Of a stretch of DNA of 64,000 bases, positions 1,666-56,792 are shown piece by piece (position 1 is the stretch's first letter; each line of letters begins with the position of its first letter). The notes below the pieces were generated by a model. That model saw only the letters and a program-made list of their open reading frames with translations, did not search any database and was not told the DNA's origin. Position numbers and translations under genes: made by a program. Origin of the DNA: a virus (taxonomy: Duplodnaviria > Heunggongvirae > Uroviricota > Caudoviricetes); IMG/VR virus record IMGVR_UViG_3300032046_000009; one strand, written 5' to 3'.

Positions 1666-1892
1666 TTTGTCACCGTCCTTAATCAGTTGATTAATTGGTG
1701 AGGCTTACGGATTCGCACCGTCAAACCCGAACCTACGCGAAGTTTGCACCTTCGCACGATTTGAGGCTTCGGTTTATAAGTCCTCGCCTCGCCTCTTCGG
1801 TTGTGCACCGAGTTCGCTACCGAGTAGAGCAAGTCCTCAATAGTATAATAGTACCGTCCTTTATAAAGGTTTCTGTACTAAAGTGTACGCAA

Positions 1893-1945
1893 AGGTTTAT
1901 ATACCCGTGTGCTATAGTAGTATTAGGGACGGTGGCGACACGAAT
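1893..1945 (+). promoter_or_regulatory. plus-strand copy of the class I promoter cassette
   Basis: gcaaaggtttatatacccgtgtgctatagtagtattagggacggtgg read on plus strand. Confidence 0.5.
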
Positions 1946-2086
1946 CGGATATTACATGGACACGAATGCCATGAGTTCGGTTGCACCACGAGTTGAACTT
2001 TTGGTGTTCCGAAAAAATAATAGAAAAAAGGTGTCGGGAGTCCCGTTTAGTGTTTTGCACTTTTTTGGGTTATCCGTCTTTACGCT

Positions 2087-2164
2087 CTACCGTTCATCGA
2101 CTTACACTCCTATCGAACGTTTCGAACCGTTCTACCGTTCATCGGTAAGCACTCCTATCGAGCG
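2087..2164. repeat. 33-bp direct repeat, two copies 45 bp apart
   Basis: ctaccgttcatcgacttacactcctatcgaacg / ctaccgttcatcggtaagcactcctatcgagcg; ggctaattgtccct x2 follows. Confidence 0.7.
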
Positions 2165-2663
2165 TGTGTCAGAAGGCTAATTGTCCCTTTGTTAAGGGCT
2201 AATTGTCCCTCGTCCTTGTGAGGCTTCACGAGTTCGCCGTCTTGGGTCGCCCGCGCCTCAATAATATACTATGTCAGCGTGGTATATAAACCTTTCTCAA
2301 TTTGTGATTATAGAAAGTTGAACTATTGTCCCTTGCTTATAAAGGTTTCGACTTAATCAGTTGATTAAAAAATGCCAAATTCGCCGTTCCGCTTCGCCGT
2401 ACCGTTCCATCAATACCTACGATGTTTCCGAATTTCGTGATGAAAAGTGGGCAACTGTGATTGAAAAGCATGGGAAAAGACCATACCTACACGTCTGTTC
2501 ACGATTCATCACAATGGGAGCTATGGGAAAAAAGCATGGTATTGTGGTGAATAGTGAGCAACTGTGTATTGTGTGGCTAAACGAAAAATTCTCTAAGTTT
2601 TCAGTTAATAGAAAGTTGTACTAAAAAAAGAAGGGAAAGTTGCACCGTCTATATCACGGTGGT

Positions 2664-2897
2664 TTAACTCCACAGGCGCACCACAAGTCTGTTTACCGTT
2701 GCAAACTCTGGGTTGACCACGTTAGTTATCCCTGCAAGTTTAACTATTTCGCCGATTATGGTTATTCTTGCAGTTGTTCCGCAGTTGATACATTCGCTTG
2801 TACGCTGTGGTAGTCTCGCAGTTGCACTTTTTATAGCCTTCACGGATTTAACTATCGTGTGGTGTCTGCATTTGGGACAATTTCCGAAATATTCCAT
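2664..2897 (-). CDS. small Zn-ribbon protein
   Basis: CPKC...CINC; TAATG overlap with upstream gene. Confidence 0.6.
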   Translation of the reverse strand: MEYFGNCPKCRHHTIVKSVKAIKSATARLPQRTSECINCGTTARITIIGEIVKLAGITNVVNPEFATVNRLVVRLWS

Positions 2898-3490
2898 TAT
2901 TCATTCACCTCTTTATTAGTTGTATAGTAGTCTAGTGAGTTAGGGCTGACGGTTGCACTTTTGATTATCTTTATTATTCGTTTCGCTCTTATATAATCTA
3001 TGTGTCCGTGTTTGCCCTTATATACTACAGGAACCGTTAGACTTCGAATCCCGACCCGTTTTAAGAGCCTTCTACGCAATGCGTCACGTCTTACGACTAA
3101 AAGGTAATTCTTGTGCCAATTTGGGCTTATTTCTATGTCAATTTGGGTCTTAGGGTCAAAGAAGTCTAATTTGAAAATGTGCCAGCGGTTGCACCTATCC
3201 TTAACTTTTATGCGTACCTCATGGTTCAACTCTAGGTTAAAGTCGTCCACTAATCTCTTGAATTGTGCCTCTAAATGGGTAAATACGTTAGGATTACGCT
3301 TAGAATTCAATTTCCAGCAATTTCCAAAGCCCTTTCCTTTAGCCTTGCCTTTTTCACAGTCCTTATAGTGTTTAAAGAATTCTAAGAACTGCACTTGTGA
3401 TTCTAGGCTTAAATCGAAGAGTCCGATAACGTCCGTGTCCTCTAGTTGTGTTAAGTGTTCGCATATTACGCTAAGTTGTAAGTGTTCCAC
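2897..3490 (-). CDS. hypothetical protein, weak PD-(D/E)xK / DUF559-like C-terminus
   Basis: 197 aa; GTG 5 nt after leader; D..IEI..H..R..L..G pattern only suggestive. Confidence 0.6.
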   Translation of the reverse strand: MEHLQLSVICEHLTQLEDTDVIGLFDLSLESQVQFLEFFKHYKDCEKGKAKGKGFGNCWKLNSKRNPNVFTHLEAQFKRLVDDFNLELNHEVRIKVKDRCNRWHIFKLDFFDPKTQIDIEISPNWHKNYLLVVRRDALRRRLLKRVGIRSLTVPVVYKGKHGHIDYIRAKRIIKIIKSATVSPNSLDYYTTNKEVNE

Positions 3491-3564
3491 GTTCGCACGT
3501 CCTTCAATACTATAATGTCAGCGTCCTATATAAACCTTCGCATTAAAAAAAGAAGGGAATTGTT

Positions 3565-4800: not shown

Positions 4801-5871
4801 AACTGATTCCGCCTCAAATCGGGGTCCGATGATGTGTAGCTAAAGTGTATCTGTGTTCTACAACTAAAAGCAAACGTTTATATAGGACGCTGAGAACGTA
4901 GTATTTGGCGGCGGCGGTTCGCGTTAAGCGTATATTACATAGTTACGCATCTTATGAATTCAGTTGCACTAAAAGTTCAACTTTGGGTTGCCTCTCTCCC
5001 GTGTCTTGCGTCAAGCTACTAGCAGATACGCACAGCCCTATATAAACCTTCCTATTAAAGTGTAGAACAGAGATACAATAGGAACCTTTATATACCTCGC
5101 TATCCTCTTCTCAGCGCGCCTCAAATCGTGCTTCGTTTGGCTAATCCGCCTCGATTCAGCCCTAATTGAACATGGTTGTTCTAGGCAAACATTTATAAGC
5201 AACCATGCCTTTTATATGGTATGTATCGAAAGACGTGATTAAACCCAGAGTTGTACTTTATGGTTCGAATTTTGCTAAGTTTGCACATATATAAGCAACC
5301 GATAGGTTTAAATAGCTACTATATAAGGCTATCGGCGATACGCTTAAATAGGGGGTATATAAACGTTTTGGTCTAGCACAACTTCTAGTGTAACAAAAAG
5401 TGCAACTTTTGGGGTAACGCCTCGGCTAACAGGAAATTGTCCGTAGAATGCAACTGAGAATGTCACATAAGCGCACATAGGCGTTTTTTTGATTCCAATT
5501 ATTTTCTGGTCAGAGCTTCCACGCCGTCCGTTTTACCTGTCGGTTTGCCCTGCTTAATCACCTGATTAAAAGTTCTCCACAGTTCCGCGAGCCTTTCGGA
5601 TAATAAAGTCACCGTTTGCCAAAACGTCTTTTTTTCAGGGCTATTTTGGCATTCAGGGGAGCTAGAGGGGGGGGACTTGTTTATAATGGGGTATTAATCA
5701 GTTGTTTAAAATAGAGCTATAGCACTATGTCAGTCAGCACGTTGTCGTATGCCAACTATTCACTCCATAGACCCTTTACGTATGACAACCCTTTTCTTTA
5801 CGTATGTAAAGGTCATCAGTATCTTTTATCGAGCATTTCTTTTATCCATGTACTCCACTTTTTAGCTATTC

Positions 5872-6040
5872 TGGGGGTCTAGTACCACTTTTAGGGGTCT
5901 TTTGAGGGGTATAGGGAGTCATCTAGGGGGTTAGTGATTAGAGGTCGTTAGGGGTTCGTGGTTAAGGGGGTCGGACGGGGGTTCTCTGGGGTTCGGGAAT
6001 TTACTTAACAATTTCTGTTAATGGTTAGGGGGGTCGGGGT
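5872..6040 (+). repeat. G-tract iteron array (about 10 runs of G4-G6)
   Basis: taggggtc, gaggggta, tagggggtt, ttaggggttc, taagggggtcgg, acgggggttc, ctggggttcgg, ttaggggggtcgggg. Confidence 0.75.
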
Positions 6041-6389
6041 AAAGGGTGCATGTGGCATGAGAGAGCCTGTTACGAGCTACGATTCGTTAATCAGTTGATT
6101 AAAAGTTCGGGTTTGCCTGTGTCGCCTTGCTACGGGCTTGGCAGAACTTGGGTCAGTCTGGGTTGACTAGGTGAAATCAAAAAGTGTTAAGGATTCTTAA
6201 CAAAAATTGTCTAAGTTTGCAGAGGGTAAAAGAGGGGGTTTCGAGAGAGGTTAGAAGGAATGAGTAGAACGGGCGAAGGGAAAGCGCGAGAAAGGACGGT
6301 GAAAAAATGGAACAATATCCCTTCGCCCTTGATAGAGTAGTATGTCAAACGGGTATATAAAGGTTGTGGTAGAAAGACCATGCTCGAAT

Positions 6390-8149: not shown

Positions 8150-8533
8150 TCAGAGAGGAATAACACCTAGCCATTTATAAACTTCGGTGTTAATTTCAGC
8201 CATACCCGAACCCGTCCATACGTTGTGAGGAATAGAAGTATGAAGAGACTCTGGAATGAAAATAACGTGTGATTTATCGATGTGGTGTCCTTCTGAACCG
8301 TTAAAAGGTGCGTTTAGAATAATAGAGCCTAATTCTCGGCGTTTAGCTTGAATCCTAGCTTGCGTTTTCTTGTGATAAATTCGATGTTCTCTCTCATATT
8401 TTCTCTCATAGTTTGGGTTTTCTAATCTCCATTTCCTCTTATATAACTTTACCTCTTTCTTATGTTTCAAACGCCAATTCTTGTAATATGTAATACGTTT
8501 TTCTCTTGAATCTGTGAGCGTCATTTGATTCAC
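8150..8533 (-). CDS. His-rich nuclease-like protein, paralog of 9378..9704
   Basis: shared KRRELG and GHHID..VIxIPxxLHxSIxHxVWTGxGMAEIN. Confidence 0.65.
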   Translation of the reverse strand: MNQMTLTDSREKRITYYKNWRLKHKKEVKLYKRKWRLENPNYERKYEREHRIYHKKTQARIQAKRRELGSIILNAPFNGSEGHHIDKSHVIFIPESLHTSIPHNVWTGSGMAEINTEVYKWLGVIPL

Positions 8534-8870: not shown

Positions 8871-9254
8871 TTATTGTCTGGGTTTGTTTGCCCTTTCTCT
8901 AAAATCGTCTGTTTCTTGTTGTGTGAAAACTTTATCAATAGCTGGAAGTCTATCGCTCTTTACATAACCATGTAAAAGGTTTCTCTCTTCTACATATTCA
9001 TTATCGCTTTCAGCGTTCAAGTTGTGAGAAATAGCTGATAAACTTTCGTATGGAAGAATTCGGTTTAATACTTCATAAATTGCAACTTCATTGAATTCGT
9101 GAACGAACAACTCAGCACCAATATCATCAGCGATTATACTGTCAATGGAATAGATAACTTTGGTAATTTTAGTATCATATCTTGAAATAGTCCCAGAAGC
9201 CAAAGCTGTTCCATCGAGTTCAGCGTTATCGAAGTAAATTTTCTCCGTGTTCAT
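8871..9254 (-). CDS. hypothetical protein
   Basis: track 8871..9266; ATG 6 nt after GGTGA beside palindrome 9267-9282. Confidence 0.6.
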   Translation of the reverse strand: MNTEKIYFDNAELDGTALASGTISRYDTKITKVIYSIDSIIADDIGAELFVHEFNEVAIYEVLNRILPYESLSAISHNLNAESDNEYVEERNLLHGYVKSDRLPAIDKVFTQQETDDFRERANKPRQ

Positions 9255-9266
9255 CGCGTTCACCAA

Positions 9267-9282
9267 TTAATCAACTGATTAA
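9267..9282. promoter_or_regulatory. 16-bp palindrome TTAATCAACTGATTAA (between TATA and start)
   Basis: read directly; second copy at 9332-9347 flanks the same promoter. Confidence 0.7.
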
Positions 9283-9331
9283 TCAGTACAGCGCGCTATA
9301 TAAAGTTTCGCCTAGAACGTCCATGTTCGAG

Positions 9332-9347
9332 TTAATCAACTGATTAA
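9332..9347. promoter_or_regulatory. 16-bp palindrome TTAATCAACTGATTAA (promoter-distal copy)
   Basis: read directly. Confidence 0.7.
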
Positions 9348-9377: not shown

Positions 9378-9704
9378 TTATGTGGTAAGCCATTCGAAAA
9401 CTTTATCATTTATTTCTGCCATACCCTGACCTGTCCAAACGCAATGATGAATAGAAATATGAAGTTCTCTGGGAATATAGATAACACATTCAAAATCTAT
9501 ATGATGAGCAACAGAGCCAATAAATCTCCCATTAAAAGGGTCAAACCCTAATTCTCGCCGTTTTGCATTCTTCATTTTAGTTCGCTCTGGGTGTTTTTTT
9601 CCCCACATTTTTATTTGTTCTCGTTGTCTCTTTTTTTGTGATTCAGTTTTCTCTTTTATTTCAACGTCAAAATTTCCAATAGACTTTAATCGCATCTGAA
9701 TCAT
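9378..9704 (-). CDS. His-rich nuclease-like protein, paralog of 8150..8533
   Basis: VAHHIDFECVIYIPRELHISIHHCVWTGQGMAEIN; class II TATA 9730-9737. Confidence 0.65.
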   Translation of the reverse strand: MIQMRLKSIGNFDVEIKEKTESQKKRQREQIKMWGKKHPERTKMKNAKRRELGFDPFNGRFIGSVAHHIDFECVIYIPRELHISIHHCVWTGQGMAEINDKVFEWLTT

Positions 9705-9745: not shown

Positions 9746-9961
9746 TTATGTAAATTGAACCTGTTCTATGTCTTTCTTTTTGATGATTTTTTCGAAACAG
9801 TCAGGGCAGAGCCACGTTAAAGTTATGCCAATTTTTCCTCTTTCTTGTACTTTTCCTTTCAAACGATAAACTTTTAGGCTGTTTTTCCAACAATTAGTGC
9901 AACTATAATAGCTTATTGATGAAATACAAATATTATAATCGGTTTTTGTTAGTTGAATCAT
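9746..9961 (-). CDS. small Zn-ribbon protein, last cassette of array A
   Basis: ATG in JM; ends EQVQFT then TAA (start of JM lost). Confidence 0.65.
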   Translation of the reverse strand: MIQLTKTDYNICISSISYYSCTNCWKNSLKVYRLKGKVQERGKIGITLTWLCPDCFEKIIKKKDIEQVQFT

Positions 9962-10200
9962 GTAAACTCTACCTTCTCTTTGCTGTTGAGAAAATCCTTA
10001 AACCACTTTTCCTTTTCCCATTCTTCAATGGGCGTATGAAAACCTAAAAGCGTCCCATGTTCTTTGTCAAACCTTTTTGAAAAATATCTCTTCCATTCTT
10101 CGTTACAACTTTCGCAGAGAACAGCCAATAATAGTTTAATTGGAAATTGACCGCTAACTATTCTTTTGCATTTTCTACAACGTCCTTTAAATTTTGTCAT
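9958..10200 (-). CDS. small Zn-ribbon protein (family B)
   Basis: JM both ends; CRKC..CESC-x3-W; ends EKVEFT. Confidence 0.7.
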   Translation of the reverse strand: MTKFKGRCRKCKRIVSGQFPIKLLLAVLCESCNEEWKRYFSKRFDKEHGTLLGFHTPIEEWEKEKWFKDFLNSKEKVEFT

Positions 10201-12188: not shown

Positions 12189-12368
12189 GCTTTCAACCCC
12201 TCTCTAAACTTGCCATGTGCGAACGGTTGACCGTGATGTGAGCCTGTCGGCAGACTTGAATAGAAACGTCTAAGTTTTCGGACGTTCAACGGCAGACCCC
12301 CGTGACTTTGCGTTTTGCGAGTTTGCGCTTTATCCTATGAAGTTTTCCCGTATTAATCACCTGATTAA

Positions 12369-13593: not shown

Positions 13594-14283
13594 TCAGTCC
13601 TCTTCTTTCTTGTTCTTCTTTGCCTTTTCTGCCTTTTGGTCACAGAGAAAACTTTCGCATTGCCCGTTCAATTCGTCCAGCATATTCACGGTGTCTAACA
13701 TTTCGTTATATCGCTCGTGTCCCTTCATGCTTTCGATGTGTGAATTGCAAATCTCAACTGCTTTTCGACATCTCCAAAGTGTGCTCTGAGCCATGCGTTT
13801 GTCTTTTAACCCGTCCTCTGCCATCTTGACGTGTTCCATTATGAAGTTAAGAATGAACTCTGCTTTCTTGTCTTTGTAGTTTTCGAATCCTTCTGGGGTC
13901 GTGAAAATCGGAATGATTTTTATGCGTCTGTCGATGTCCTCAAATCCTTTGCTCTTTGCCTTTGCCTTTATCTCTTCAATTTCTGCAACAGCTAAGTCCA
14001 GCTTATCGCCGTCCAGAAGCCAACTGCTTTCGAGATGTTTCACAGCGTCCAGCTTGAATTTCAGAGCGAACACAATTGCGTTTCTGAAAATTCGCGCAAG
14101 TTTGTTGAATCGCGTGTTTGCGTCCCGTTGTTCTTTTGTCAACTTTTTCTTTTCCGCGTCCGTCAGATATTTCTCGCTGTAAAGGTCATACTCTATTGTA
14201 TAAATCGTTTCGCCGTGTAGTCCTAACGATTCAAGAGCCTTTTCGTCTATGATGAGTTTGTTTGTCGTTTTTTGGTCAGCCAT
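13594..14283 (-). CDS. hypothetical coiled-coil protein
   Basis: track 13594..14292; ATG after AAGTGATTAAA, i.e. palindrome 14285-14300 supplies the SD. Confidence 0.7.
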   Translation of the reverse strand: MADQKTTNKLIIDEKALESLGLHGETIYTIEYDLYSEKYLTDAEKKKLTKEQRDANTRFNKLARIFRNAIVFALKFKLDAVKHLESSWLLDGDKLDLAVAEIEEIKAKAKSKGFEDIDRRIKIIPIFTTPEGFENYKDKKAEFILNFIMEHVKMAEDGLKDKRMAQSTLWRCRKAVEICNSHIESMKGHERYNEMLDTVNMLDELNGQCESFLCDQKAEKAKKNKKEED

Positions 14284-14284: not shown

Positions 14285-14300
14285 TTAATCACTTGATTAA
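14285..14300. promoter_or_regulatory. 16-bp palindrome TTAATCACTTGATTAA between TATA and start
   Basis: read directly; TATA 14318-14325. Confidence 0.7.
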
Positions 14301-14352
14301 CTATAAATACAGCGTCCTATATAAACGTTTGCTAGGAATCTCCATTCTCATT

Positions 14353-14706
14353 TTACTTAATCAGGTGATTAAACGATTTATGACTAATAATTCTGTGACA
14401 ATTCGCGCAGACTAATCGAACGTCCTCTGGAATTTTCTCTGCCCTTCTCCAACGAACCAATTCTTTTACTCTTCGATTCGCATTTTTTTGTTGTTCATTG
14501 CAACGAAGCCATGTATCGTTTCCTTCATGGTGAAAATCATAAACACAAGAATCAAAATGTTTATCGCAATGAAAACACTTATCGCCTAACTTTTGAATCG
14601 CCCAGAGTTTTAATTCTTCTAGCCATTTTTGGTGATATATCTTTTGGCATTCAGGACATCTTTGAGATTTTGTATTTGTTTCTTTTTCACAGTCTTGACA
14701 TTTCAT
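14353..14706 (-). CDS. HNH endonuclease
   Basis: CPEC..CFHC..HH..N..CANCH; class II TATA 14741-14750. Confidence 0.7.
   Translation of the reverse strand: MKCQDCEKETNTKSQRCPECQKIYHQKWLEELKLWAIQKLGDKCFHCDKHFDSCVYDFHHEGNDTWLRCNEQQKNANRRVKELVRWRRAEKIPEDVRLVCANCHRIISHKSFNHLIK
14357..14372. promoter_or_regulatory. 16-bp palindrome TTAATCAGGTGATTAA, promoter-distal copy
   Basis: read directly; flanks the same promoter about 72 bp away. Confidence 0.7.
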
Positions 14707-14762
14707 TTGAAACACTAATTAATAGATGGTTAATTAAGTATTTAAGTCTTATGGTTGATTAA

Positions 14763-15779: not shown

Positions 15780-16667
15780 TTAGGTATCCTCTTCTTTCTT
15801 TTTCAACTTTTCTACGTCTATCTCAGAGCTATCTTCGAAGAACGACCTAAATAAATTGCGCTCTTCTCTTGCGGTGTAAAGCGAACTTGCTATATCGATT
15901 ATGTCCTCTTCGGACATCTTCGCTTTGTAGAGTTTGCCGTAGTTTATTAGGTTGCCTGTCGTGAGGGGCGTTCTAAGTTTTCCGTTCTCGTATTCGGTTC
16001 GCGTCTTTTTGGCAATTTCTACGAACTTCGCAGAAAAGTCATAGTTTCCAGAGAACTTCTTTACCAATTCGCGTTCTTTCTGGGGGCTAAGGTATTCGAT
16101 TATCAGACCTTCAAATCGTCTAATGGTTGCAATGTTCTCGATGAATGTCCCAGAGTAACCCGATTTTTCTGAGGGGTTATAGCTGATAACGAGATAGTGC
16201 TGTGCTGTCCGTGTGAATTGCTTCTTGTATTCTGGAATATACACGTTTCCCCTAAAGTCTGCCAATGATTCCAGAAGTGAAATTATCGATGGTTCTGCAT
16301 AGTTGAACCCGTCTATGTAAAGCAGACCTTTCTCGCTGTTCAACCATTGAATTATGATTCCATCTCTTGTTTCTGTGCTTCCAGCTTTCAGAGTATCACA
16401 TGCCAGCAAATCCCACTTTGTCACGTCCCGTGTTAAGACAATTTCAAAAAGCGGAACCTCTAACAATTCAGCCAACTTGTGAACAAGAGTTGTTTTGCCC
16501 GTCCCCGTTTCGCCGACTAATCTAAGGTTGCCGACAATTTCAAGAATCGCTCTTGACTTTTCAATGTAGCCATGTTCGTCCACGAACTCGATGCCTTTGA
16601 CGTAGATGCCAGCACCTTCAAGTGCTGATTCGACCTTTGCATGAATCTTTTCAAATTCTGAGTTCAT
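15780..16667 (-). CDS. AAA+ ATPase, MoxR/CbbQ/NorQ-like
   Basis: Walker A GETGTGKTT; Walker B LLYIDGF; VWA partner in the adjacent unit. Confidence 0.8.
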   Translation of the reverse strand: MNSEFEKIHAKVESALEGAGIYVKGIEFVDEHGYIEKSRAILEIVGNLRLVGETGTGKTTLVHKLAELLEVPLFEIVLTRDVTKWDLLACDTLKAGSTETRDGIIIQWLNSEKGLLYIDGFNYAEPSIISLLESLADFRGNVYIPEYKKQFTRTAQHYLVISYNPSEKSGYSGTFIENIATIRRFEGLIIEYLSPQKERELVKKFSGNYDFSAKFVEIAKKTRTEYENGKLRTPLTTGNLINYGKLYKAKMSEEDIIDIASSLYTAREERNLFRSFFEDSSEIDVEKLKKKEEDT

Positions 16668-16805
16668 CTTTATTACCTTACGAGTATAGATGCCAGCGTC
16701 CTATTTAAATGTTTGCTTAGAAAGACCATGTTCATTTTAGTTAATCAACTGATTAAAATTTCTCAAAACCCCTCTCCCGCCCGAACCAAAGGTTGCACCA
16801 AAAGT

Positions 16806-19400: not shown

Positions 19401-19544
19401 TTGAAATTAATCATTTGATTAAATAAGCTCAACAGTTCGCATCGTGCCTCGGCGTGAAGGGGCGTGAAGCAGTTAATCACCTGATTAATTAAATGCGCCT
19501 CGCACCGCGTCCCGTTTGGCAAAAGCGACCATTGTGAAAGCTGT

Positions 19545-19753: not shown

Positions 19754-20028
19754 GTCACACTTTCGGTGTAACTTTCCGTCCCCTCGAAAATTAAATTTTT
19801 AGTAGAATCCTGAGTGTCACATAACGCACATAGGCGTTTTTTCTTCCCAATTAGATTTCGGTTTATGGTGAAGCCCTCTGCCAGCCCCCAACGTATTCCC
19901 CAGACTTTTAATCAACTGATTAAAAAAGCACCGACTTCAGGCTTCAGTTCCCATTGGCTTCGCCCTAGCATCCAGAACGTCTTTTTCCCTAGTCTATTTA
20001 CCTGTCAAATGTAGCTAGGGGTAGGGGA

Positions 20029-20154: not shown

Positions 20155-20165
20155 TTTCTCTTCTG

Positions 20166-28090: not shown

Positions 28091-28434
28091 ATTAGGATAT
28101 ATTATCAGCGTCCCTTATAAACTTTTGCCTAGAACATCCATGCCAATATAACCGTCTGTCCAAGCCCTTGTGCCATCAAAAGCCACTTTTTTAAACAGTT
28201 GATTAACTCGACTTTGGAAAAAATTCCACGGTCTTTCCAATAAATTAATTAATCAACTGATTAAAATTTCTCAAATTTGCCGTTCCGCCCACAGTAGTAG
28301 TGTTTAAGAAGGGTTCATATATAAAACCAGAAGAGTTTGTTATGTTTTAAAGTTACAGAAAATTAAAGCAGTATGCCCTAAAATGGATAACTAGATTAAA
28401 AAAGAGAAATATAGAGAGCAATTAAAAAAATGCT

Positions 28435-30437: not shown

Positions 30438-30455
30438 GGTTAAACACCTGATTAA

Positions 30456-32806: not shown

Positions 32807-32811
32807 ATTAA

Positions 32812-33756
32812 TCACTTGATTAATTGAAGTATCCCATCTTTACTTATTTGGAGTTTGTGGTATCGCATATCAGCCTTGCCTAGCCGACACTTGAGAACCC
32901 GTATGAAGTGTAGAAGTTCGCCTTGTTTTGCTTCGGTGTCGATTTTCATTTGAGCGTCCCAACTTGAGAGTTTCTTAAAGTTGATTTCAAACTCCACGTC
33001 TAGCAAATGGCTTAATGCAATGCCCCCTGCAAGTCCGTGTTGGTCAACTGATTCCTCATTTGCTTTCTGTGAGATAAAGATTCCTGTCACGCCTTTCTTC
33101 TGATTATAGCGGACAAATTCGCCTAAGTGGAATTTCAGTCCAGCACGATAATCATCTAGGAGAGTTAACGAATCGACAATTAGAAACTCAGCCTTTTCCT
33201 GTTCTACGAGTACGCGATAAGTTGAAACAAGTGTATTCCATTCTCTAAGTTCGCCGTGTGCAATAACGTCCAGCACAAAAAGATTCTGCTTTATGTTTTC
33301 CCAACTCAGTCCCAGAAAAGTTGCCATCTGTTTCATTCGACTCTGCAAATCAAATCTGTCGTTGTCAGCTTGGAAAATATCTTCGCTAGTTGTGAAAATA
33401 ACTTTGTTTCCGTCACTAGCTAATCTGAGCGCAACTTCCTGAGCGATTAAAGACTTGCCGACATCTGGGTTTCCGACCACACCTATCTGTGCAACTTTCG
33501 GAATGCCCCCCATAGGTTTATCGTCTTTGTCTAAGAAGAAATTGTCTAGGAAGGTTCTGCTTTTGAATAATGCTATTTGTGTCTTTATCTTTGCATCGTT
33601 CGGTCTAGTGGTCAGAAAGTCTTTAGTAAGTTGAATTGGTTTGTTAAAACTCTCTAGCGTTCCATCATTCTGAGCCTTAGCGATTATCTCTTCCATTCTC
33701 TCCATTACAGATTTAGCTCTTTCCTCTAGTTCTTTTTTACTTTGTTCTTCGCTCAT
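32812..33756 (-). CDS. RecA-superfamily ATPase (KaiC/RadB/DnaB-C-like)
   Basis: Walker A GNPDVGKS; Walker B FLIVDSLT. Confidence 0.7.
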   Translation of the reverse strand: MSEEQSKKELEERAKSVMERMEEIIAKAQNDGTLESFNKPIQLTKDFLTTRPNDAKIKTQIALFKSRTFLDNFFLDKDDKPMGGIPKVAQIGVVGNPDVGKSLIAQEVALRLASDGNKVIFTTSEDIFQADNDRFDLQSRMKQMATFLGLSWENIKQNLFVLDVIAHGELREWNTLVSTYRVLVEQEKAEFLIVDSLTLLDDYRAGLKFHLGEFVRYNQKKGVTGIFISQKANEESVDQHGLAGGIALSHLLDVEFEINFKKLSSWDAQMKIDTEAKQGELLHFIRVLKCRLGKADMRYHKLQISKDGILQLIK

Positions 33757-35889: not shown

Positions 35890-36300
35890 AGTTTCGAAGT
35901 TAGTTCGAAAAAGTATATGAATTAAATTTAAGATTTAATGGGACTGTTATATAATTTTTCATGGTCTTTTCCCATAGGTTATAAACTATTCCATAAATCC
36001 TAAATATAATCCTTGATAGATTTCGGAGTTAGTTCGAAACATCAAAAAGTCCATACTTTTACCATAGACTATTCGAACAATTTTCGAAAAGAAAATATAA
36101 TTATTTAGGATTTTATGGATTAAAATAACTATCCGATTGCCCAGAGAAGCCATAAGAATGCCCCGTTTGACAAAAGGACATAGATATAAAAAATATTAAA
36201 ATTATATTTTAGAATTTTAATCAGGTGATTAACCGTGGTCGTATATTGCATGGACAATATAGGATAATTAATCAACTGATTAAAAATTCGAAAAATCGGG
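35890..36300. other. AT-rich ORF-free region with TTCGAA repeats and an inverted repeat
   Basis: tttcgaagttagttcgaaa / tttcggagttagttcgaaac; IR ccataaatcctaaatataat vs ataattatttaggattttatgg. Confidence 0.5.
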
Positions 36301-40265: not shown

Positions 40266-40481
40266 CTATGAGTATCGCTGGTTTGCATGGACTTCTCCAT
40301 GCCGAAGGTCATAAAAGGAACTATTTTAATCAGTTGATTAAACATTCGGTTTCCATGACCAGCAGGGTTGGGAGCTTTTTTGGCACTTCGAAAAATTTCG
40401 AAAGCCATTCTCTCCATACAAACATCCCCAACCAGCAAAAAAGTGATGGTCATTTGCGAGACCTGTAAAAATTATCTGCCT

Positions 40482-40614: not shown

Positions 40615-41088
40615 TCAGATGGCTTTTTTCCACCCCCTCGGCTCCATGCCCCAAACTTTTAATCAGTTGATTAATAACTACCGAAAGGTTTATATGGTGC
40701 AACTCGTATTATATAAGGAAGAGTTGAACTTTCAATGACACAGAAAGTTACACTAACCGTAACCTCGAAAGTGACCCAGACGGAAACACGGAAAAGGGTA
40801 ACGCAGAAAAACCTTTAGGAAAAAACCATCGGTCACACTTTTTGAAACCACATACCCACACATAGGCGGCGCGCAGGCGAAAATTTGATTTTGGTCGGCG
40901 AACTTTGTGATTTCTGTTATGATTGTTATTTTGGTATTATTTTTATTTCCTATTTCCTGAGCATTTCGATTTAGATTTACTAAGGATTCGAGAAAAGAAA
41001 ATAACTGAAAACGTCTTTTTTTCAGGGAGTTTTGAACGTCTAGGGGAGCTAGGGGTAGGGGACTATCCCAGAGAAAGTTGGTATATGC

Positions 41089-43658: not shown

Positions 43659-43882
43659 GTAAATTGCACTACCTCTCGTTCTAATTCTGGATGACTTTCT
43701 GGTTTAGCTATTATCTGTCCGCAATTGTGACATTGAACAACTTTGTTATAAGAATTCCATTTTATTGCTCCATTATATCCACAACCGAAACAAATATTAG
43801 AATGTATAGACCTATGTTCTCGCGTAGTCAAACGAACCAAACCACAATCTTTATCATAATGCAAAACTTTGAGTTGTTTCAT
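43655..43882 (-). CDS. small Zn-ribbon protein
   Basis: CFGCG..CHNCG; ends EVVQFT. Confidence 0.65.
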   Translation of the reverse strand: MKQLKVLHYDKDCGLVRLTTREHRSIHSNICFGCGYNGAIKWNSYNKVVQCHNCGQIIAKPESHPELEREVVQFT

Positions 43883-44061
43883 GTGAATTGAACCTTCTCC
43901 CGTTCATTCATAATTGACACATAAACCGTACAATGTTCTCTTATTCTGCAAGATTTTATGCAATATTCTTTGTTAAGCGAATTATGTACTGTGCATCCCG
44001 AAATACTCCATTTAACGTTCAGTTTAGAAGGATGCGTTAAAAGAACTGGTTCAGCACTCAT
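43879..44061 (-). CDS. small Cys protein
   Basis: 60 aa; ends EKVQFT. Confidence 0.6.
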   Translation of the reverse strand: MSAEPVLLTHPSKLNVKWSISGCTVHNSLNKEYCIKSCRIREHCTVYVSIMNEREKVQFT

Positions 44062-54525: not shown

Positions 54526-55238
54526 TACTTCTCAGCCTTTTGTGCTTTCTCAAGTTTCTTTTTCAGTTCGGCTATGTGAGCGTCTTTCTTCTTTACTTCT
54601 TCTATGATTTTTGCAGTTTCGGGGTCAATCAATGGTATCATTTCTTCTTTTGTGGGTATCATAGTTTCTGGTTTCTTAAATTGTTCGGCTAGTTTTGCTT
54701 GGCGTTCAGCTTCCATTGCGGCACGTTCTTTCTTCTGTAGTTCATATGCTTCCGCTTTTCTAGTTTCCTGATAGTCTGTCTGGGTTTTTCTGAAAATTTC
54801 ATATTTGTAAATATCAGCGTTACTTATCGAATCTGGAACCACCTTTATGTCATCAGGCACACCCATTGCAATTTTTCGTTCACGATTCTTGGTAGCTTGT
54901 TCGCTTCTAATTTGCCAATTACGACATTTCTGGCACATTGATTTCTCTGGAATCATAACATTGTCAACCTCTGTGTTCGGTTCCTTTATTAGTCTTTTTC
55001 CTTTTTCTTCGAGACTTCGAGTTGAACCCTCAATTTTTGTGCCCATACTATTCCATTCGGTTGGAACAGTTTTACGAAATACCTTCTTACATTTAGGGCA
55101 ACCAAAAATATTCCCATCAATAGACTTCGCCAATTCTGTTTTGTCGTCAGGGCAAGTATGTTTCTTGAAGACGTAAACCTTCAACATTGTTACGAAATAA
55201 TCTTGTCCACATGATGAACATTTCTGTTTTTGTTTCAT
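54525..55238 (-). CDS. Zn-ribbon protein with coiled-coil tail
   Basis: CSSCG, CPKC, CQKC; TATA 55274-55281. Confidence 0.7.
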   Translation of the reverse strand: MKQKQKCSSCGQDYFVTMLKVYVFKKHTCPDDKTELAKSIDGNIFGCPKCKKVFRKTVPTEWNSMGTKIEGSTRSLEEKGKRLIKEPNTEVDNVMIPEKSMCQKCRNWQIRSEQATKNRERKIAMGVPDDIKVVPDSISNADIYKYEIFRKTQTDYQETRKAEAYELQKKERAAMEAERQAKLAEQFKKPETMIPTKEEMIPLIDPETAKIIEEVKKKDAHIAELKKKLEKAQKAEK

Positions 55239-55303
55239 ATTTCAATCACTATAAAGGTATTACGCACTCGTCCTATTTAAACTTTGCGTCAGAAACTCCA
55301 TGC

Positions 55304-55483
55304 TCAACTTCTAATCAATGAGAGGGTCAACCATTCATTGACGAGAACCATAATGTCATCTGGGTATTTTGGAAACTCTGGAATATCTAAAAATAGAAAC
55401 AACTCGATAAAGAAGTAAGGCTTTCGGTCTGTCCAATAAATTCTTTGAACCATCGAAGGACGTATTCTAAGTTCTTTTATCAA
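55304..55483 (-). CDS. 59-aa protein (not in track)
   Basis: TTG in JM variant TTCGATTGA; stop in TTGAGCATGG. Confidence 0.5.
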   Translation of the reverse strand: MIKELRIRPSMVQRIYWTDRKPYFFIELFLFLDIPEFPKYPDDIMVLVNEWLTLSLIRS

Positions 55484-55659
55484 TCGAACTTCACCTTTTC
55501 AGACTCTACACGAACTTTATAACAGTCATCAAATGCATGGGGATTCTCAATATACGAACGAGTTTTCTTCCAACATTTTCTACAGAAACATTCTTTGGTT
55601 CTACAGTCTTTAAACTTGGCATCACATTCGAATTCGATACCGCAATTAAGGCATTTCAA
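55480..55659 (-). CDS. 59-aa 8-Cys protein (family A; not in track)
   Basis: MKCLNCGIEFEC..CFCRKC; ends EKVKFD. Confidence 0.6.
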   Translation of the reverse strand: MKCLNCGIEFECDAKFKDCRTKECFCRKCWKKTRSYIENPHAFDDCYKVRVESEKVKFD

Positions 55660-55805
55660 TCGAATTGGACCTTCTCTATTTTATGAAAATAGTTGTAATA
55701 TTCGTGAGCAAGTCGTACAAACCATCTCATACATGCTCTATGATTACTACCACATTGAGTGGTCGGTGGTGGTATTATACATCCCCATGTATTTTTTGGT
55801 TTCAT
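55656..55805 (-). CDS. 49-aa protein (not in track)
   Basis: ATG in JM 55802; ends EKVQFD. Confidence 0.5.
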   Translation of the reverse strand: MKPKNTWGCIIPPPTTQCGSNHRACMRWFVRLAHEYYNYFHKIEKVQFD

Positions 55806-55948
55806 GTGAACGTAACCTTTTCTTCTTCTACAAATTTAATTGCCATCATAATAAAACGAGTGTACCATCCTAAAGCCGCTCTGCATTTGTTATTTCCAAG
55901 TCGAAATTTGTGATTATGGATTTGCCTATATAATTTTGTTTGAGCCAT
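55802..55948 (-). CDS. 48-aa protein (not in track)
   Basis: ends EKVTFT; 23-nt overlap with upstream gene. Confidence 0.4.
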   Translation of the reverse strand: MAQTKLYRQIHNHKFRLGNNKCRAALGWYTRFIMMAIKFVEEEKVTFT

Positions 55949-56618
55949 CCCGCCATTCCCTCAGTCCGTAACTTTTGTTTGCCTTAATGAACACGAGTGG
56001 ACCGTGGGTATAACTCATTTCCTTAACTTCTCTTTGCAATCTTGGAATCAGATTAAGTTTATCTTGAACGGTCCATTCTGATTTTTGAGCGGCTTGAATA
56101 TCTTTCTTAATAAGGGCATCAGCCATAATGTTGACACAGCATATCTCACCACATTGTATAAGTCTGTCAGTCACGACATGAGTTAATTCGTTAAGTTCTT
56201 CTCCTGTAAAATCATTCACCGTAAAGTGTGAATTAACATTAATCATATGTGGTTGGTCTTTGAAAATAATTTTCGTCCTATATTGCCATTTCTTCCACCA
56301 CGACTGAACCCAAAAATGAACAAATTCCTCTGTGTCTTTTATATCTTGCAAATTTTTGGTTACGCCAAAATTTTCTACAATTAATGATATAATCTCTTCC
56401 ATGATTACTTGTTGCGAAGGTAGAAACTCTTGAGATATTTGTTTATCAACACTCATATGGTTTCTGTCAAGATATTCAGTATAATTCTTAAAGTCTTCAA
56501 TGCAGATTTCATAAACCTTTCGGTCTTCGCCAGTAAGACTTAGCAATGGACAAATTTCAGCTAGATTATTGAAAATTAACGTGTTAATCCAAAATCTCAT
56601 ATCTATATTAAGAGCCAT
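55926..56618 (-). CDS. hypothetical protein
   Basis: 230 aa; TATA 56658-56665. Confidence 0.7.
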   Translation of the reverse strand: MALNIDMRFWINTLIFNNLAEICPLLSLTGEDRKVYEICIEDFKNYTEYLDRNHMSVDKQISQEFLPSQQVIMEEIISLIVENFGVTKNLQDIKDTEEFVHFWVQSWWKKWQYRTKIIFKDQPHMINVNSHFTVNDFTGEELNELTHVVTDRLIQCGEICCVNIMADALIKKDIQAAQKSEWTVQDKLNLIPRLQREVKEMSYTHGPLVFIKANKSYGLREWRDGSNKII

Positions 56619-56792
56619 TATACATCAATACTCCAACTACTATAATCTCTCCGTCCCTTATAAACCTTACGCTAGAATAACCATGCTCAATTTAAAGGTT
56701 ATGATGCCAGTTAATCAACTGATTAAAATATTGGTTTTGATAACCTTCTCCGCCGTTTTCCCATGCTTTCAACATGCTTTATAATATAGTTA

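What the first reader, a model, noticed from the sequence alone, without database searches (positions are those of the whole stretch)
1679..56726. 16-bp palindrome TTAATCA-NN-TGATTAA in about 25 intergenic copies, often bracketing promoters
Copies start at 1679, 2353, 5554, 5694*, 6087, 9267, 9332, 12353, 14285, 14357, 16741, 19008*, 19407, 19473, 19908, 28191*, 28249, 30440*, 32808, 36227, 36268, 40326, 40659, 46539* and 56711 (* = one mismatch). At 9267/9332 and 14285/14357 two copies flank a single TATA, one overlapping the TSS/SD region and one 60-70 bp upstream. That is a classic operator geometry. Flanks are also conserved (ttaatcaactgattaaaatttctcaaa at 16741 and 28249; ..aaattcgccgttccgc at 2369 and 28275). 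One half-site (AGGTGATTAA) can double as the SD for the adjacent gene. Candidate roles are a dimeric repressor/activator operator or a centromere-like site.
Basis: partly seen in the sequence, partly recalled or inferred. Interest (0 to 1): 0.7.

Follow-up and report, generated by a model that had tools for sequence, protein, structure and literature searches.

The report
Operator-like palindrome in an archaeal virus
A 16-base palindrome repeated 25 times in this stretch of a large, uncultivated archaeal (Bathyarchaeia) virus genome sits at a few preferred positions next to gene promoters and is conserved in related viruses, so it is most likely the docking site of a still-unidentified regulatory protein that switches a subset of viral genes.

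Summary
TTAATCA-NN-TGATTAA occurs 20 times exactly and 5 times with one mismatch, against 0.01 and 0.09 expected. The spacing is always N2. Isolated half-sites are not enriched, and 24 of 25 site centres lie outside coding sequence (P=4e-11).

The window is part of a roughly 152-kb tailed virus genome, probably infecting Bathyarchaeia. It has about 50 archaeal-type BRE/TATA promoters. Sites avoid BRE/TATA and cluster at set offsets from the first T of the TATA box:
- +22 to +26, over the expected transcription start and 1-12 nt before the start codon;
- about -25, abutting the BRE;
- about -47, just upstream of a virus-specific upstream promoter element.

In orthologous intergenic regions of diverged relatives (143 non-redundant sites in 322 kb), the half-sites stay invariant while the centre and flanks drift.

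Best reading: an operator/upstream site for a dimeric DNA-binding regulator. This rests on site geometry and conservation. No regulator was identified and no binding was shown.

Rivals that remain open:
- landing or boundary sites linked to HNH-like endonuclease genes, which are enriched next to sites (p=1.5e-4);
- terminator or insulator;
- ParB/KorB-like sites.

This is a new member of a known kind, of moderate interest.

The parts
1679..1694 (.). Palindrome, exact. It lies in a long leader about 170 nt downstream of the TATA box at 1867 (minus strand) and 13 nt before the ATG of a 35-aa ORF (1558-1665).
2353..2368 (.). Palindrome, exact. It ends 9 nt upstream of a weak TATA box at 2343 (offset -25). 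It is also at -78 from the TATA box at 2290, which drives an ORF-free, T-run-terminated stretch.
5554..5569 (.). Palindrome, exact. It lies in a 1-kb ORF-free stretch between convergent promoters at 5192(+) and 6361(-).
5694..5709 (.). Palindrome with one mismatch, in the same ORF-free stretch.
6087..6102 (.). Palindrome, exact, in the same ORF-free stretch.
9267..9282 (.). Palindrome, exact, of the start-site class. It begins +22 from the TATA box at 9304 and lies 12 nt before the ATG of the 127-aa gene at 8871-9255.
   Evidence: the orthologous pair is present in L136
9332..9347 (.). Palindrome, exact, of the upstream class (-43 from the TATA box at 9304). It lies 31 nt after the stop of the HNH-like 'HHID' ORF 9378-9704.
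9289..9334 (-). Composite archaeal-type promoter: GAACATGG-N4-TTCT element, BRE and TATA box, flanked by sites 9267 and 9332.
12353..12368 (.). Palindrome, exact, of the start-site class (+25 from the TATA box at 12393). It is followed by a leader of about 165 nt.
14285..14300 (.). Palindrome, exact, of the start-site class (+25 from the TATA box at 14325). It lies 1 nt before the ATG at 14283 of the conserved 229-aa gene 13594-14283.
   Evidence: conserved in L135/L144/L171, L151, L168 and L230
14357..14372 (.). Palindrome, exact, of the upstream class (-47 from the TATA box at 14325). It overlaps the last six codons of the HNH-like ORF 14353-14715.
14310..14355 (-). Composite promoter flanked by sites 14285 and 14357.
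16741..16756 (.). Palindrome, exact, of the upstream class (-47 from the TATA box at 16709). It precedes the MoxR-type AAA+ gene 15780-16667.
   Evidence: sites also lie upstream of the orthologues in L010 and L230
19008..19023 (.). Palindrome with one mismatch, of the upstream class (-47 from the TATA box at 18976). It precedes the 575-aa gene 17211-18938, whose homologue in L128 has a weak VWA match.
   Evidence: in L157 the site at this gene is instead at the start-site position
19407..19422 (.). Palindrome, exact, first of a pair 66 bp apart. The pair is conserved in L157 and L162, with different centre bases.
19473..19488 (.). Palindrome, exact, second of the pair. It lies at -106 from the plus-strand promoter at 19579.
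19908..19923 (.). Palindrome, exact. It lies in the zone where the plus-strand unit starting at 19579 meets minus-strand genes.
28191..28206 (.). Palindrome with one mismatch, at -85 from the TATA box at 28121.
28249..28264 (.). Palindrome, exact, at -143 from the TATA box at 28121. It lies 58 bp from site 28191.
30440..30455 (.). Palindrome with one mismatch. It sits between the stop of ORF 30456-30596 and the GTG start at 30437 of an 89-aa gene. Its AGGTG half is SD-like.
32808..32823 (.). Palindrome, exact. It contains the TGA stop (32812-32814) of the KaiC-like ATPase gene and ends 1 nt before the ATG at 32806 of a small membrane-peptide ORF.
36217..36232 (.). Palindrome, exact, first of a pair 51 bp apart. 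The pair is conserved in L138 and L163. No strong TATA box was recognised nearby.
36268..36283 (.). Palindrome, exact, second of that pair.
40326..40341 (.). Palindrome, exact, at -106 from the TATA box at 40235.
40659..40674 (.). Palindrome, exact. It ends 14 nt upstream of the plus-strand TATA box at 40689.
46539..46554 (.). Palindrome with one mismatch, 49 nt after the stop of the HExxH ORF 46603-47040.
56711..56726 (.). Palindrome, exact, at -62 from the TATA box at 56664 (gene 55926-56618). It lies 67 nt after the stop of the HNH-like ORF 56793-57068.

Best explanation
The 16-bp inverted repeat is a DNA binding site (operator or upstream site) for a symmetric, probably dimeric, sequence-specific regulator. 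The regulator is most likely encoded by the virus itself. The virus is a roughly 152-kb head-tailed virus of Bathyarchaeia.

Each monomer would read one TTAATCA half-site, and the two central bases are not read. The host archaeal transcription machinery (TBP/TFB/RNA polymerase) uses the virus's BRE/TATA promoters, and the palindrome modulates a subset of them.

- A site starting 22-26 bp after the first T of the TATA box covers the expected transcription start. A bound protein there would block polymerase recruitment, giving repression.
- A site abutting the BRE (about -25), or just upstream of the virus-specific GAGCATGG-N4-TTCT element (about -47), could help or hinder TBP/TFB recruitment.
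- At the two promoters carrying both classes (65-72 bp apart), two bound dimers could cooperate for a tight switch.
- Sites in ORF-free stretches between convergent units probably serve weaker or non-coding-RNA promoters, or act as roadblocks.

Shown here: enrichment, strict N2 spacing, non-coding placement, positional classes relative to promoters, and conservation in relatives.

Inferred: protein binding, the transcription start positions, the direction of regulation, and that the regulator is viral.
For: Enrichment and spacing:
- 20 exact and 5 near-exact copies against 0.01 and 0.09 expected.
- Spacing is strictly N2, and isolated half-sites are not enriched.
- 24 of 25 site centres lie outside coding sequence, P=3.7e-11.

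Promoter context:
- The window has 50 BRE/TATA-type core promoters, against 0-3 in shuffles. Sigma-70-type sites are at chance level.
- Offsets in the window are +22, +25, +25; -43, -47, -47, -47; and -25, -30.
- Across the family, 77 site-promoter pairs peak at -50 to -46, -30 to -21, +20 to +29 and -110 to -106. Only one falls between -20 and +19.

Conservation:
- Palindromes are retained at orthologous promoters in relatives whose flanks and centre dinucleotide differ.
- These include the promoters of the MoxR, 575-aa and 229-aa genes, at protein identities down to about 54-63%.
- There are 143 non-redundant exact sites in about 322 kb of related loci. The centre varies: AT 53, AC/GT 52, CC/GG 15, and others.
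- What is conserved is the sequence, not a structure. The RNA hairpin is only -2.7 to -4.4 kcal/mol and no better than shuffles.

Subset and precedent:
- Only 9 of about 42 minus-strand promoters carry a site, as expected for a regulon rather than a general promoter element.
- An identical paired palindrome lies directly upstream of a TetR-family gene (Pfam TetR_N, E=9e-10) in L166, a bacterial metagenome contig encoding TetR with MFP and RND efflux genes. The same paired pattern also occurs in many Vibrionaceae genomes, whose gene context was not examined. This is the placement expected of a dimeric helix-turn-helix operator, but binding to it was not shown.
Against: - No DNA-binding regulator was found in the window. 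Pfam scans of about 200 ORFs gave no HTH or RHH hit. The concatenated-query method used for most of them loses sensitivity, and about 90 kb of the genome could not be examined.
- The most strikingly 'autoregulated' gene (13594-14283) gives a confident model (pLDDT 88.7) with no DNA-binding fold match. Its homologue in the more distant L128 lacks the sites.
- About 10 of the 25 sites are not within 150 nt of a recognisable promoter.
- Pair spacings (42-95 bp) show no clear helical phasing.
- Transcription starts are assumed from standard archaeal promoter geometry, not measured.
Confidence: 0.6

Rival explanations
1. The palindromes are recognition or landing sites for the virus's free-standing HNH-type (nicking or homing) endonucleases, and so mark the boundaries of exchangeable gene cassettes. 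Any regulatory role is secondary or absent.
For: - HNH-like small ORFs lie within 130 nt of a palindrome in 10 of 17 cases, against 90 of 539 other ORFs (Fisher p=1.5e-4).
- In L157 an HNH-like gene sits exactly between the equivalents of sites 19008 and 19407, replacing a 377-nt non-coding segment.
- A LAGLIDADG gene in L230 ends on a palindrome.
- Relatives are mosaic at single-gene level, and several homology blocks end at palindromes.
- A profile of the HNH-like ORFs weakly matches a nicking endonuclease (9qgv, E=0.005) and other HNH domains.
Against: - Most palindromes have no endonuclease gene next to them.
- Sites next to such genes are intact, whereas homing normally disrupts or diverges the target.
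- Most cassette breakpoints lie at the shared gene junction, not at palindromes.
- Homology blocks ending at a conserved island are expected for any conserved site.
- The HNH assignment is weak: Pfam E is about 0.1 and the AlphaFold2 (AF2) model has pLDDT 60.
- The loci were selected for having palindromes, which inflates the association.
- This reading does not explain the fixed offsets from the TATA box. It is compatible with the operator reading, since endonucleases often target conserved functional sites.
Confidence: 0.15
2. The palindrome, together with its T-rich 5' flank, is a transcription terminator or insulator. It would separate consecutive or convergent transcription units.
For: - In gene orientation the three bases before the site are T in 13-15 of 25 copies.
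- Many sites lie just after the end of an upstream unit and before the next promoter, or between convergent units at 5200-6350 and 19650-20165.
- In AT-rich relatives the site can extend to a 28-nt palindrome, AAAAGA...TCTTTT, which folds at -10.3 kcal/mol.
Against: - The window's hairpins fold at only -2.7 to -4.4 kcal/mol, no better than shuffles.
- Only 5 sites have a run of 5 or more T.
- In relatives the upstream flank in gene orientation is A-rich, not T-rich.
- The stem never covaries; its sequence is invariant.
- Start-site-class sites lie inside transcription units, directly before start codons.
- The terminator-like scan is at chance level.
Confidence: 0.08
3. The sites are centromere-like or ParB/KorB-type. 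A partition or genome-organising protein would bind the scattered palindromes and may also silence nearby promoters.
For: - The site is a 16-bp palindrome, the size of parS, scattered in many copies in both promoter-proximal and distal positions, as with KorB operators on IncP plasmids (the KorB comparison is from general knowledge).
- A ParB_N-domain ORF lies at 63682-63963 (E=1.3e-9).
Against: - That ORF is 93 aa with no helix-turn-helix or dimerisation domain.
- No ParA or full ParB was found in the window or in the 10 kb beyond it.
- The element is a tailed virus: relatives encode a terminase, PolB and an HK97-gp10-like protein.
- Sites show promoter-specific offsets rather than clustering near a partition locus.
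Confidence: 0.07
4. The element works at RNA level, as a hairpin or processing site in transcripts, for example by masking the ribosome-binding site.
For: At 14285, 30440 and 32808 the right half ((A/G)GTGAT) lies 1-2 nt before a start codon and resembles the archaeal Shine-Dalgarno sequence.
Against: - The fold is weak and there is no covariation.
- Many sites lie upstream of the TATA box, where they would not be part of the regulated transcript.
- At start-site-class promoters only about half of the palindrome would be transcribed.
- There is no Rfam match.
Confidence: 0.03

Closest known systems
Position-dependent palindromic operators of archaeal regulators, such as the Thermococcales glycolytic motif TATCAC-N5-GTGATA bound by TrmBL1/Tgr, or SurR sites (from general knowledge)
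   Same: An inverted repeat near BRE/TATA promoters. Copies downstream of the TATA box, over the start site, are expected to repress. Copies upstream of the BRE are expected to activate. One motif defines a regulon.
   Different: The half-site sequence and spacing differ (TTAATCA-N2-TGATTAA). The sites are on a virus genome rather than the host chromosome. No TrmB- or SurR-type protein, nor any other regulator, was identified here. Density is much higher, at 25 per 64 kb and up to 14 per 11 kb in relatives.
Operators of archaeal-virus regulators, such as the SSV1 F55 and SIRV1 SvtR ribbon-helix-helix repressors (from general knowledge)
   Same: Virus-borne sites overlapping start sites of selected viral promoters that use the host TBP/TFB/RNA polymerase.
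   Different: Those systems have a handful of sites on 15-35-kb genomes of Sulfolobales viruses, and the binding proteins are known. Here there are dozens of sites on a roughly 152-kb tailed virus of an uncultivated lineage, and the protein is unknown. Only a weak RHH_3 match (E=0.0014) was seen, in a distant relative (L202) and not in the window.
KorB operator (OB) network of IncP-1 plasmids (from general knowledge)
   Same: A short palindrome in many copies spread over a roughly 60-kb replicon, at promoter-proximal and distal positions, giving global control.
   Different: KorB is a full ParB-family protein with a helix-turn-helix domain, partnered with a ParA. The window has only a 93-aa ParB_N-only ORF and no ParA. 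The host is bacterial and the promoters are sigma-70 type.
TetR-family operator upstream of a bacterial RND efflux locus (L166; same paired pattern in Vibrionaceae genomes L174-L210)
   Same: The identical consensus, TTAATCA-NN-TGATTAA, occurs as a pair about 66 bp apart immediately upstream of the regulator gene in L166. The same paired pattern occurs in many Vibrionaceae genomes.
   Different: It is a bacterial chromosomal locus with one pair per genome. No TetR_N domain was found in the viral window. The resemblance is most likely convergent. Only the L166 gene context was examined, and binding of the TetR protein to the site was not tested.
PeSL (promoter-early stem-loop) cassettes of T4-type phages (from general knowledge)
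   Same: A repeated inverted-repeat-plus-promoter module between small, shuffled genes in a hyperplastic region of a large virus.
   Different: PeSL stem-loops are proposed to act as terminators and recombination substrates, and the promoters are bacterial sigma-70 type. Here the stem is weak, its sequence is invariant, and only a subset of the repeated promoters carries it.

Membership tests
Promoter-proximal operator of a dimeric transcription factor (generic) | Inverted repeat with fixed half-site spacing, far above chance | tested here: met
   20 exact copies against 0.01 expected, and only the N2 spacing occurs.
Promoter-proximal operator of a dimeric transcription factor (generic) | Non-coding location at discrete positions relative to core promoter elements | tested here: met
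   24 of 25 centres are non-coding. Offsets cluster at +22 to +26, -25 and -47, with none on BRE/TATA. About 10 of 25 sites have no recognisable promoter within 150 nt.
Promoter-proximal operator of a dimeric transcription factor (generic) | Sites conserved at orthologous promoters while surrounding non-coding DNA diverges | tested here: met
   Alignments with L135, L151, L136, L157, L162, L138 and L163. Sites are also present upstream of orthologues in L010, L168 and L230.
Promoter-proximal operator of a dimeric transcription factor (generic) | A cognate DNA-binding protein that binds the site | not testable with these tools
   No HTH or RHH domain was found in the window. The 229-aa candidate has no DNA-binding fold match. 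Binding requires an experiment.
TrmB/TGM regulon (Thermococcales glycolytic motif) | Motif TATCAC-N5-GTGATA and a TrmB-family regulator | tested here: not met
   The half-site and spacing differ, and there is no TrmB-family Pfam hit in the window.
parS / ParB (including KorB OB sites) | A full-length ParB (ParB_N plus HTH plus dimerisation domain) and a ParA partner encoded by the element | tested here: not met
   Only a 93-aa ParB_N-only ORF at 63682-63963. No ParA or ParB-HTH in the window or in 10 kb beyond it. About 72 kb of the genome was not examined.
Intrinsic transcription terminator | Stable stem-loop followed by a U-run | tested here: not met
   Folding energy is -2.7 to -4.4 kcal/mol, no better than shuffles. 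The T-rich flank is 5' of the stem. The terminator scan is at chance level.
CRISPR array | Regularly spaced identical direct repeats with unique spacers of constant length | tested here: not met
   Spacings range from 51 bp to several kb in the window. Clusters in L153 are spaced 75, 103 and 75 bp.
MITE / transposon terminal inverted repeats | Conserved element body between inverted ends, with target-site duplications | tested here: not met
   Flanks beyond about 5-10 nt are not conserved among the copies.
Homing-endonuclease target site | Endonuclease gene adjacent to the site | tested here: inconclusive
   10 of 17 HNH-like ORFs are adjacent, against 17% of other ORFs, p=1.5e-4. The HNH assignment is weak, and the loci were selected for having palindromes.
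Homing-endonuclease target site | Target disrupted or altered in endonuclease-containing alleles and intact in empty alleles | tested here: not met
   Palindromes next to HNH-like genes are intact, at window 14357, 9332 and 56711 and at L157 931/1522.
Known RNA family (Rfam) | Match to a curated covariance model | tested here: not met
   No match at gathering threshold anywhere in the window, and no tRNA.

The most novel reading that the evidence does not exclude
The palindrome is a multi-purpose 'punctuation mark' of a previously undescribed family of roughly 110-150-kb Bathyarchaeia tailed viruses. One viral protein would bind dozens of copies to run a genome-wide switch, repressing at start sites and activating or insulating upstream. 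The same conserved sites would serve as landing pads for HNH-type nicking or homing endonucleases and as borders of exchangeable gene cassettes. Regulation would thereby be coupled to the extreme single-gene mosaicism of these genomes.
Probability: 0.2. Interest if true: 0.65.

Novelty: new member of a known kind. Interest (0 to 1): 0.45.

Why it matters
Nothing is known about gene regulation in viruses of Bathyarchaeia, an abundant and uncultivated archaeal class. A sharply defined 16-bp site with clear promoter geometry gives a concrete handle on it. The site, together with the 46-nt viral promoter it accompanies, can be synthesised for three kinds of experiment:
- fishing the regulator out of candidate viral ORFs;
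- testing repression against activation in heterologous archaeal in vitro transcription;
- acting as a sequence tag to find further members of this virus family in metagenomes. The paired-site pattern alone retrieved about 30 related loci.

If the link to endonuclease genes and cassette borders holds, it would connect regulatory sites to genome mosaicism in archaeal viruses.

Tried and rejected
- Megablast and tblastn against deposited phage genomes gave no match.
- A protein-pattern scan of IMG/VR with the 575-aa protein found nothing.
- There are no tRNAs, although one flank looked tRNA-like by eye. There is no Rfam family.
The paired-site pattern worked instead.
- Seven metagenome hits were 12-bp tandem repeats, and several others were bacterial loci (a TetR operator, and an intergenic site near an smpB-like ORF recognised by eye, not Pfam-checked). 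All were set aside.
- A second apparent motif, TTTGGCAAA, is not enriched: 3 copies against 1.6 expected.
- The 229-aa gene with operators on both sides of its promoter was tested as a candidate autoregulator. It gave a confident AF2 model but no DNA-binding or other significant fold match in the PDB.
- The AF2 model of the HNH-like ORF 14353-14715 was too poor to use, at pLDDT 60 with only two homologues.
- The afdb50 fold library was unavailable.
- Walking along the contig to look for a regulator in the other ~90 kb was not possible, because only window proteins may be looked up. One look-up failed on a start-codon choice.
- An RHH_3-like ORF in L202 and L145 has no homologue in the window.
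- A literature search found no description of this motif, and the Bathyarchaeia virus survey PMC10541130 does not mention it.

Full report
**1. The observation**

The pattern TTAATCANNTGATTAA occurs 20 times exactly and 25 times with at most one mismatch. Dinucleotide-preserving shuffles give means of 0.01 and 0.09. All listed coordinates are correct except 36227, which should be 36217.

Only the N2 spacing exists. Every other inverted, everted or direct arrangement of the half-sites gives 0-1 copies. Outside the palindromes there are 12 isolated half-sites against about 22 expected.

Minus-strand ORFs of at least 60 aa cover 67% of the window, but only one site centre (40326) lies in one. That ORF runs across a promoter and is probably spurious (P=3.7e-11). 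Three sites touch gene ends:
- 14357 covers the last six codons of an ORF.
- 32808 contains a stop codon.
- 30440 sits between a stop and a start codon.

**2. What the window is**

Nearly all genes are on the minus strand and most are small. There is no similarity to deposited phages, no tRNA and no Rfam family.

The few recognisable proteins are an RNA ligase, a KaiC/RecA-like ATPase, glycosyltransferases, an SPFH protein, a MoxR-type AAA+ ATPase, a trypsin-like protease and a ParB_N-only protein.

The KaiC-like protein occurs identically on metagenome contigs of up to about 152 kb. Its nearest cellular homologues (about 42% identity) are from Bathyarchaeota. Two contigs start at different points of the same sequence, which implies a circular or circularly permuted genome of about 152-154 kb.

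Several lines point to a tailed archaeal virus:
- A related 112-kb contig is in IMG/VR. It encodes a family-B DNA polymerase, a T4-type large terminase and tail-fibre-like proteins.
- Another relative, an 82.8-kb contig binned in a Bathyarchaeia MAG from SPRUCE peat, encodes an HK97-gp10-like tail component.

The window is therefore part of a large head-tailed virus, most likely infecting Bathyarchaeia. The host assignment rests on homology and binning only.

**3. The promoters**

On the minus strand there are about 30 copies of a 46-nt composite promoter: TTGAGCATGG-N4-TTCTaGG-cAAAgg-TTTATA(T/A)AGGACGcTG. In total there are 50 BRE/TATA-type core promoters, 8 of them on the plus strand, against 0-3 in shuffles. 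Start codons follow 35-45 nt after the TATA box.

Sigma-70-type promoters and hairpin-plus-T terminators are at chance level. The TATA box preceded by a purine-rich BRE matches the archaeal promoter consensus (established knowledge). In that geometry, transcription should start about 25-30 nt after the first T of the TATA box. This start position is inferred, not measured.

**4. Where the palindromes sit**

Offsets are given from the first T of the TATA box, in promoter orientation:
- Start-site class: +22 (9267), +25 (12353), +25 (14285).
- Upstream class: -43 (9332) and -47 (14357, 16741, 19008). These lie just upstream of the GAGCATGG element.
- Close to the BRE: -25 (2353) and -30 (40659, for a plus-strand promoter).
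- More distant: -62 to -143 (56711, 28191, 28249, 40326, 19473).

Ten sites have no recognisable promoter within 150 nt. These include the cluster at 5554/5694/6087 in a 1-kb ORF-free stretch between convergent promoters, and 19908 in a similar zone.

Pooling the window with related loci gives 77 site-promoter pairs. They peak at -50 to -46, -30 to -21, +20 to +29 and -110 to -106, and only one falls between -20 and +19. The sites therefore avoid BRE/TATA itself.

Start-site-class palindromes end 1-2 nt before the start codon at several genes: 14285 in the window, L135, L230 position 11250, and L157 position 931. Site 9267 ends 12 nt before its start codon and 12353 is followed by a leader of about 165 nt.

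Only 9 of about 42 minus-strand promoters carry a site. The palindrome is thus a modifier of a subset of promoters, not a general promoter element.

**5. Conservation**

The palindrome is present in relatives whose KaiC-like protein is 79% identical (L007) and 63% identical (L010).

Scanning for two palindromes 30-60 nt apart found 2 stretches in IMG/VR, 41 in metagenomes and 37 in genomes. After setting aside seven tandem-repeat artefacts and some bacterial loci, about 30 are relatives of this virus, from sediment, peat and estuarine samples.

Orthologous intergenic regions keep both palindromes while the centre dinucleotide and the flanks change:
- Window 14285/14357 against L135 and L151.
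- Window 9267/9332 against L136.
- Window 19407/19473 against L157 and L162.
- Window 36217/36268 against L138 and L163.

The double site at the 229-aa gene persists down to 54% protein identity (L168) but is absent at 49% (L128).

At the 575-aa gene the site is upstream of the promoter in the window but over the start site in L157. In the AT-rich relatives L131, L153 and L154 the consensus extends to AAAAGA-TTAATCAATTGATTAA-TCTTTT, usually on one side only. There the site often ends 8-9 nt before the TATA box, abutting the BRE.

In about 322 kb of related DNA there are 143 non-redundant exact sites. Centre dinucleotides are AT 53, AC/GT 52, CC/GG 15, AG 8, GA 7, AA 5, TA 2 and CA 1. Invariant half-sites, a free centre and no compensatory stem changes point to sequence-specific protein recognition of double-stranded DNA, not to a structure. 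As RNA the window's sites fold at only -2.7 to -4.4 kcal/mol, no better than shuffles.

**6. Most likely mechanism**

The site is most likely bound by a symmetric dimer.
- At the start-site class, binding would block recruitment of RNA polymerase after TBP/TFB. This is the usual way archaeal repressors act (established knowledge for regulators such as TrmB-family proteins, SurR and MDR1).
- Upstream of the BRE, or of the viral upstream element, binding could activate or hinder.
- At the two promoters with both classes, two dimers 65-72 bp apart could cooperate.

All of this rests on site geometry and conservation. No binding was shown.

**7. The search for the regulator failed**

Pfam scans of about 200 ORFs gave no HTH or RHH domain. 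Ten ORFs were scanned alone and the rest as concatenated queries, which costs some sensitivity.

The 229-aa gene flanked by operators has more than 50 homologues, all unannotated. Its model is confident (pLDDT 88.7) but has no significant fold match in the PDB, so it looks like a target rather than the regulator.

A weak RHH_3 match (E=0.0014) exists in L202 and L145 but has no homologue in the window. About 90 kb of the genome lies outside the window. Of this, 10 kb on one side (Pfam-annotated: LonB and glycan-synthesis genes) and 6.4 kb on the other were inspected, leaving about 72 kb unexamined.

The genome scan for paired sites found only one archaeal contig, itself virus-like. There is therefore no evidence that host chromosomes use this motif, though single sites in host genomes could not be surveyed.

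**8. Rivals**

(a) *Endonuclease or recombination sites.* Small HNH-like ORFs lie next to palindromes in 10 of 17 cases against 17% of other ORFs (p=1.5e-4). The HNH assignment rests on a CxxC...HH...CxxCH motif, Pfam HNH hits at E of about 0.1, and a profile match to a nicking endonuclease at E=0.005.

In L157 such a gene replaces the segment between the equivalents of sites 19008 and 19407. A LAGLIDADG gene in L230 ends on a site. Relatives are mosaic gene by gene, and several homology blocks end at palindromes.

Against this:
- The sites next to these genes are intact.
- Most sites have no such neighbour.
- Most breakpoints lie elsewhere.
- The loci were selected through palindromes.
- The fixed offsets from the TATA box are left unexplained.

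This reading can coexist with the operator reading.

(b) *Terminator or insulator.* There is a T-rich 5' flank in about half of the copies, and some sites lie at unit ends. But the hairpin is weak, relatives have the opposite flank, and the start-site class lies inside transcription units.

(c) *ParB/KorB-like.* The only support is a 93-aa ParB_N-only ORF.

(d) *RNA element.* This is rejected for the reasons given in section 5.

**9. Comparison with known systems**

It works like the position-dependent palindromic operators of archaeal regulators and like operators of archaeal-virus repressors. In copy number and spread it resembles the KorB operator network of IncP plasmids. It is not a member of the TGM/TrmB, parS, CRISPR, MITE, terminator or Rfam classes, because defining features were tested and not met.

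The identical paired consensus lies directly upstream of a TetR-family gene next to an RND efflux operon on the bacterial contig L166 (Pfam TetR_N, E=9e-10), and the same paired pattern occurs in many Vibrionaceae genomes. This is the arrangement typical of a helix-turn-helix dimer operator, and the resemblance is most likely a coincidence of sequence.

No description of the motif was found in the searchable literature, including the survey of Bathyarchaeia viruses PMC10541130.

**10. Verdict**

The feature is real, strongly non-random and conserved. It is best explained as an operator-type protein-binding site of a viral regulon in an undescribed family of large Bathyarchaeia viruses (confidence about 0.6).

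It is a new member of a known kind. Its interest is moderate, because it gives an experimental handle on regulation in an uncultivated virus-host system. The possible link to endonuclease genes and cassette borders is worth following up.

Noticed in passing
window, minus strand, e.g. 60823-60868, 56649-56694, 24568-24613; about 30 copies: A 46-nt composite promoter, TTGAGCATGG-N4-TTCTaGG-cAAAgg-TTTATA(T/A)AGGACGcTG, is repeated about 30 times. There are 50 BRE/TATA-type cores in total. The conserved element 20-40 nt upstream of the BRE is not a standard archaeal promoter part and may be a second protein-binding site. It is shared by close relatives (L230, L136, L146) but not by L010.
   Followed up: partly
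window, 75 ORF ends, e.g. 9958-10200, 20393-20608, 43879-44061: 75 of 211 ORFs end in V-x-F-[T/D/S], mostly E-K-V-x-F-T. The underlying DNA is GAR-AAG-GTN-NNN-TTY-AC(A/T)-TGA, in which ATGA or TTGA overlaps the next start codon. This forms a shared 21-nt gene junction with an SD-like AAGGTG about 9 nt before the next start. It could also provide micro-homology for shuffling the small genes. 34 of these ORFs carry two or more CxxC motifs.
   Followed up: partly
window against L136, L162, L170, L173: Close relatives (70-90% DNA identity per block) are mosaic at the level of single small genes. Blocks from distant window positions sit side by side in them.
   Followed up: partly
window 14353-14715, 56793-57068, 8150-8533, 9378-9704; L230 6065-6598 and 3252-6014: Several free-standing HNH-like ORFs are present. 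In a relative there is a LAGLIDADG endonuclease gene, plus a LAGLIDADG-like insertion that enlarges the 575-aa protein's homologue to 920 aa, possibly an intein. These viruses appear rich in homing-type elements.
   Followed up: partly
window about 2040-2290, 19024-19222, 5200-6350 and 12190-12352: These are ORF-free stretches with higher G+C, each with its own BRE/TATA promoter and ending in T-runs. The one at 2040-2290 contains internal direct repeats. They are candidate non-coding RNAs or long leaders, and none matches Rfam.
   Followed up: no
window 13594-14283: This 229-aa protein is conserved across the virus family, with more than 50 homologues and no Pfam domain. It gives a confident AF2 model (pLDDT 88.7) with no PDB fold match at E<=0.001, only partial three-helix-bundle resemblances.
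   Followed up: yes
window 15780-16667 and 17211-18938; L128 8322-9992: A MoxR-type AAA+ ATPase gene sits next to a 575-aa protein whose distant homologue has a weak VWA-domain match. This conserved MoxR-VWA-like pair occurs in all relatives examined, and each gene is usually preceded by a palindrome.
   Followed up: partly
window 63682-63963, and beyond the right end (L226 1-10000): A stand-alone 93-aa ParB_N-domain ORF sits next to a block of glycan-biosynthesis genes: PIG-L, SDR, a hexapeptide transferase, glycosyltransferases, UDP-GlcNAc 2-epimerase and UDP-glucose dehydrogenase. A LonB protease gene is also in the block.
   Followed up: no
L153 5409-5720; L131 6881-7063; L152 2460-2591: In AT-rich relatives, three or four palindromes separated by 50-85-nt G+C-rich segments follow the conserved 288-aa P-loop ATPase gene (window homologue 26612-27478). 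These could be a small-RNA cluster or an origin-like region.
   Followed up: no
L166 6120-6201; L174-L210: The same paired palindrome lies directly upstream of a TetR-family gene adjoining an MFP/RND efflux operon on the bacterial contig L166, and the paired pattern recurs in many Vibrionaceae genomes. It is an unrelated bacterial operator that happens to share the consensus.
   Followed up: partly
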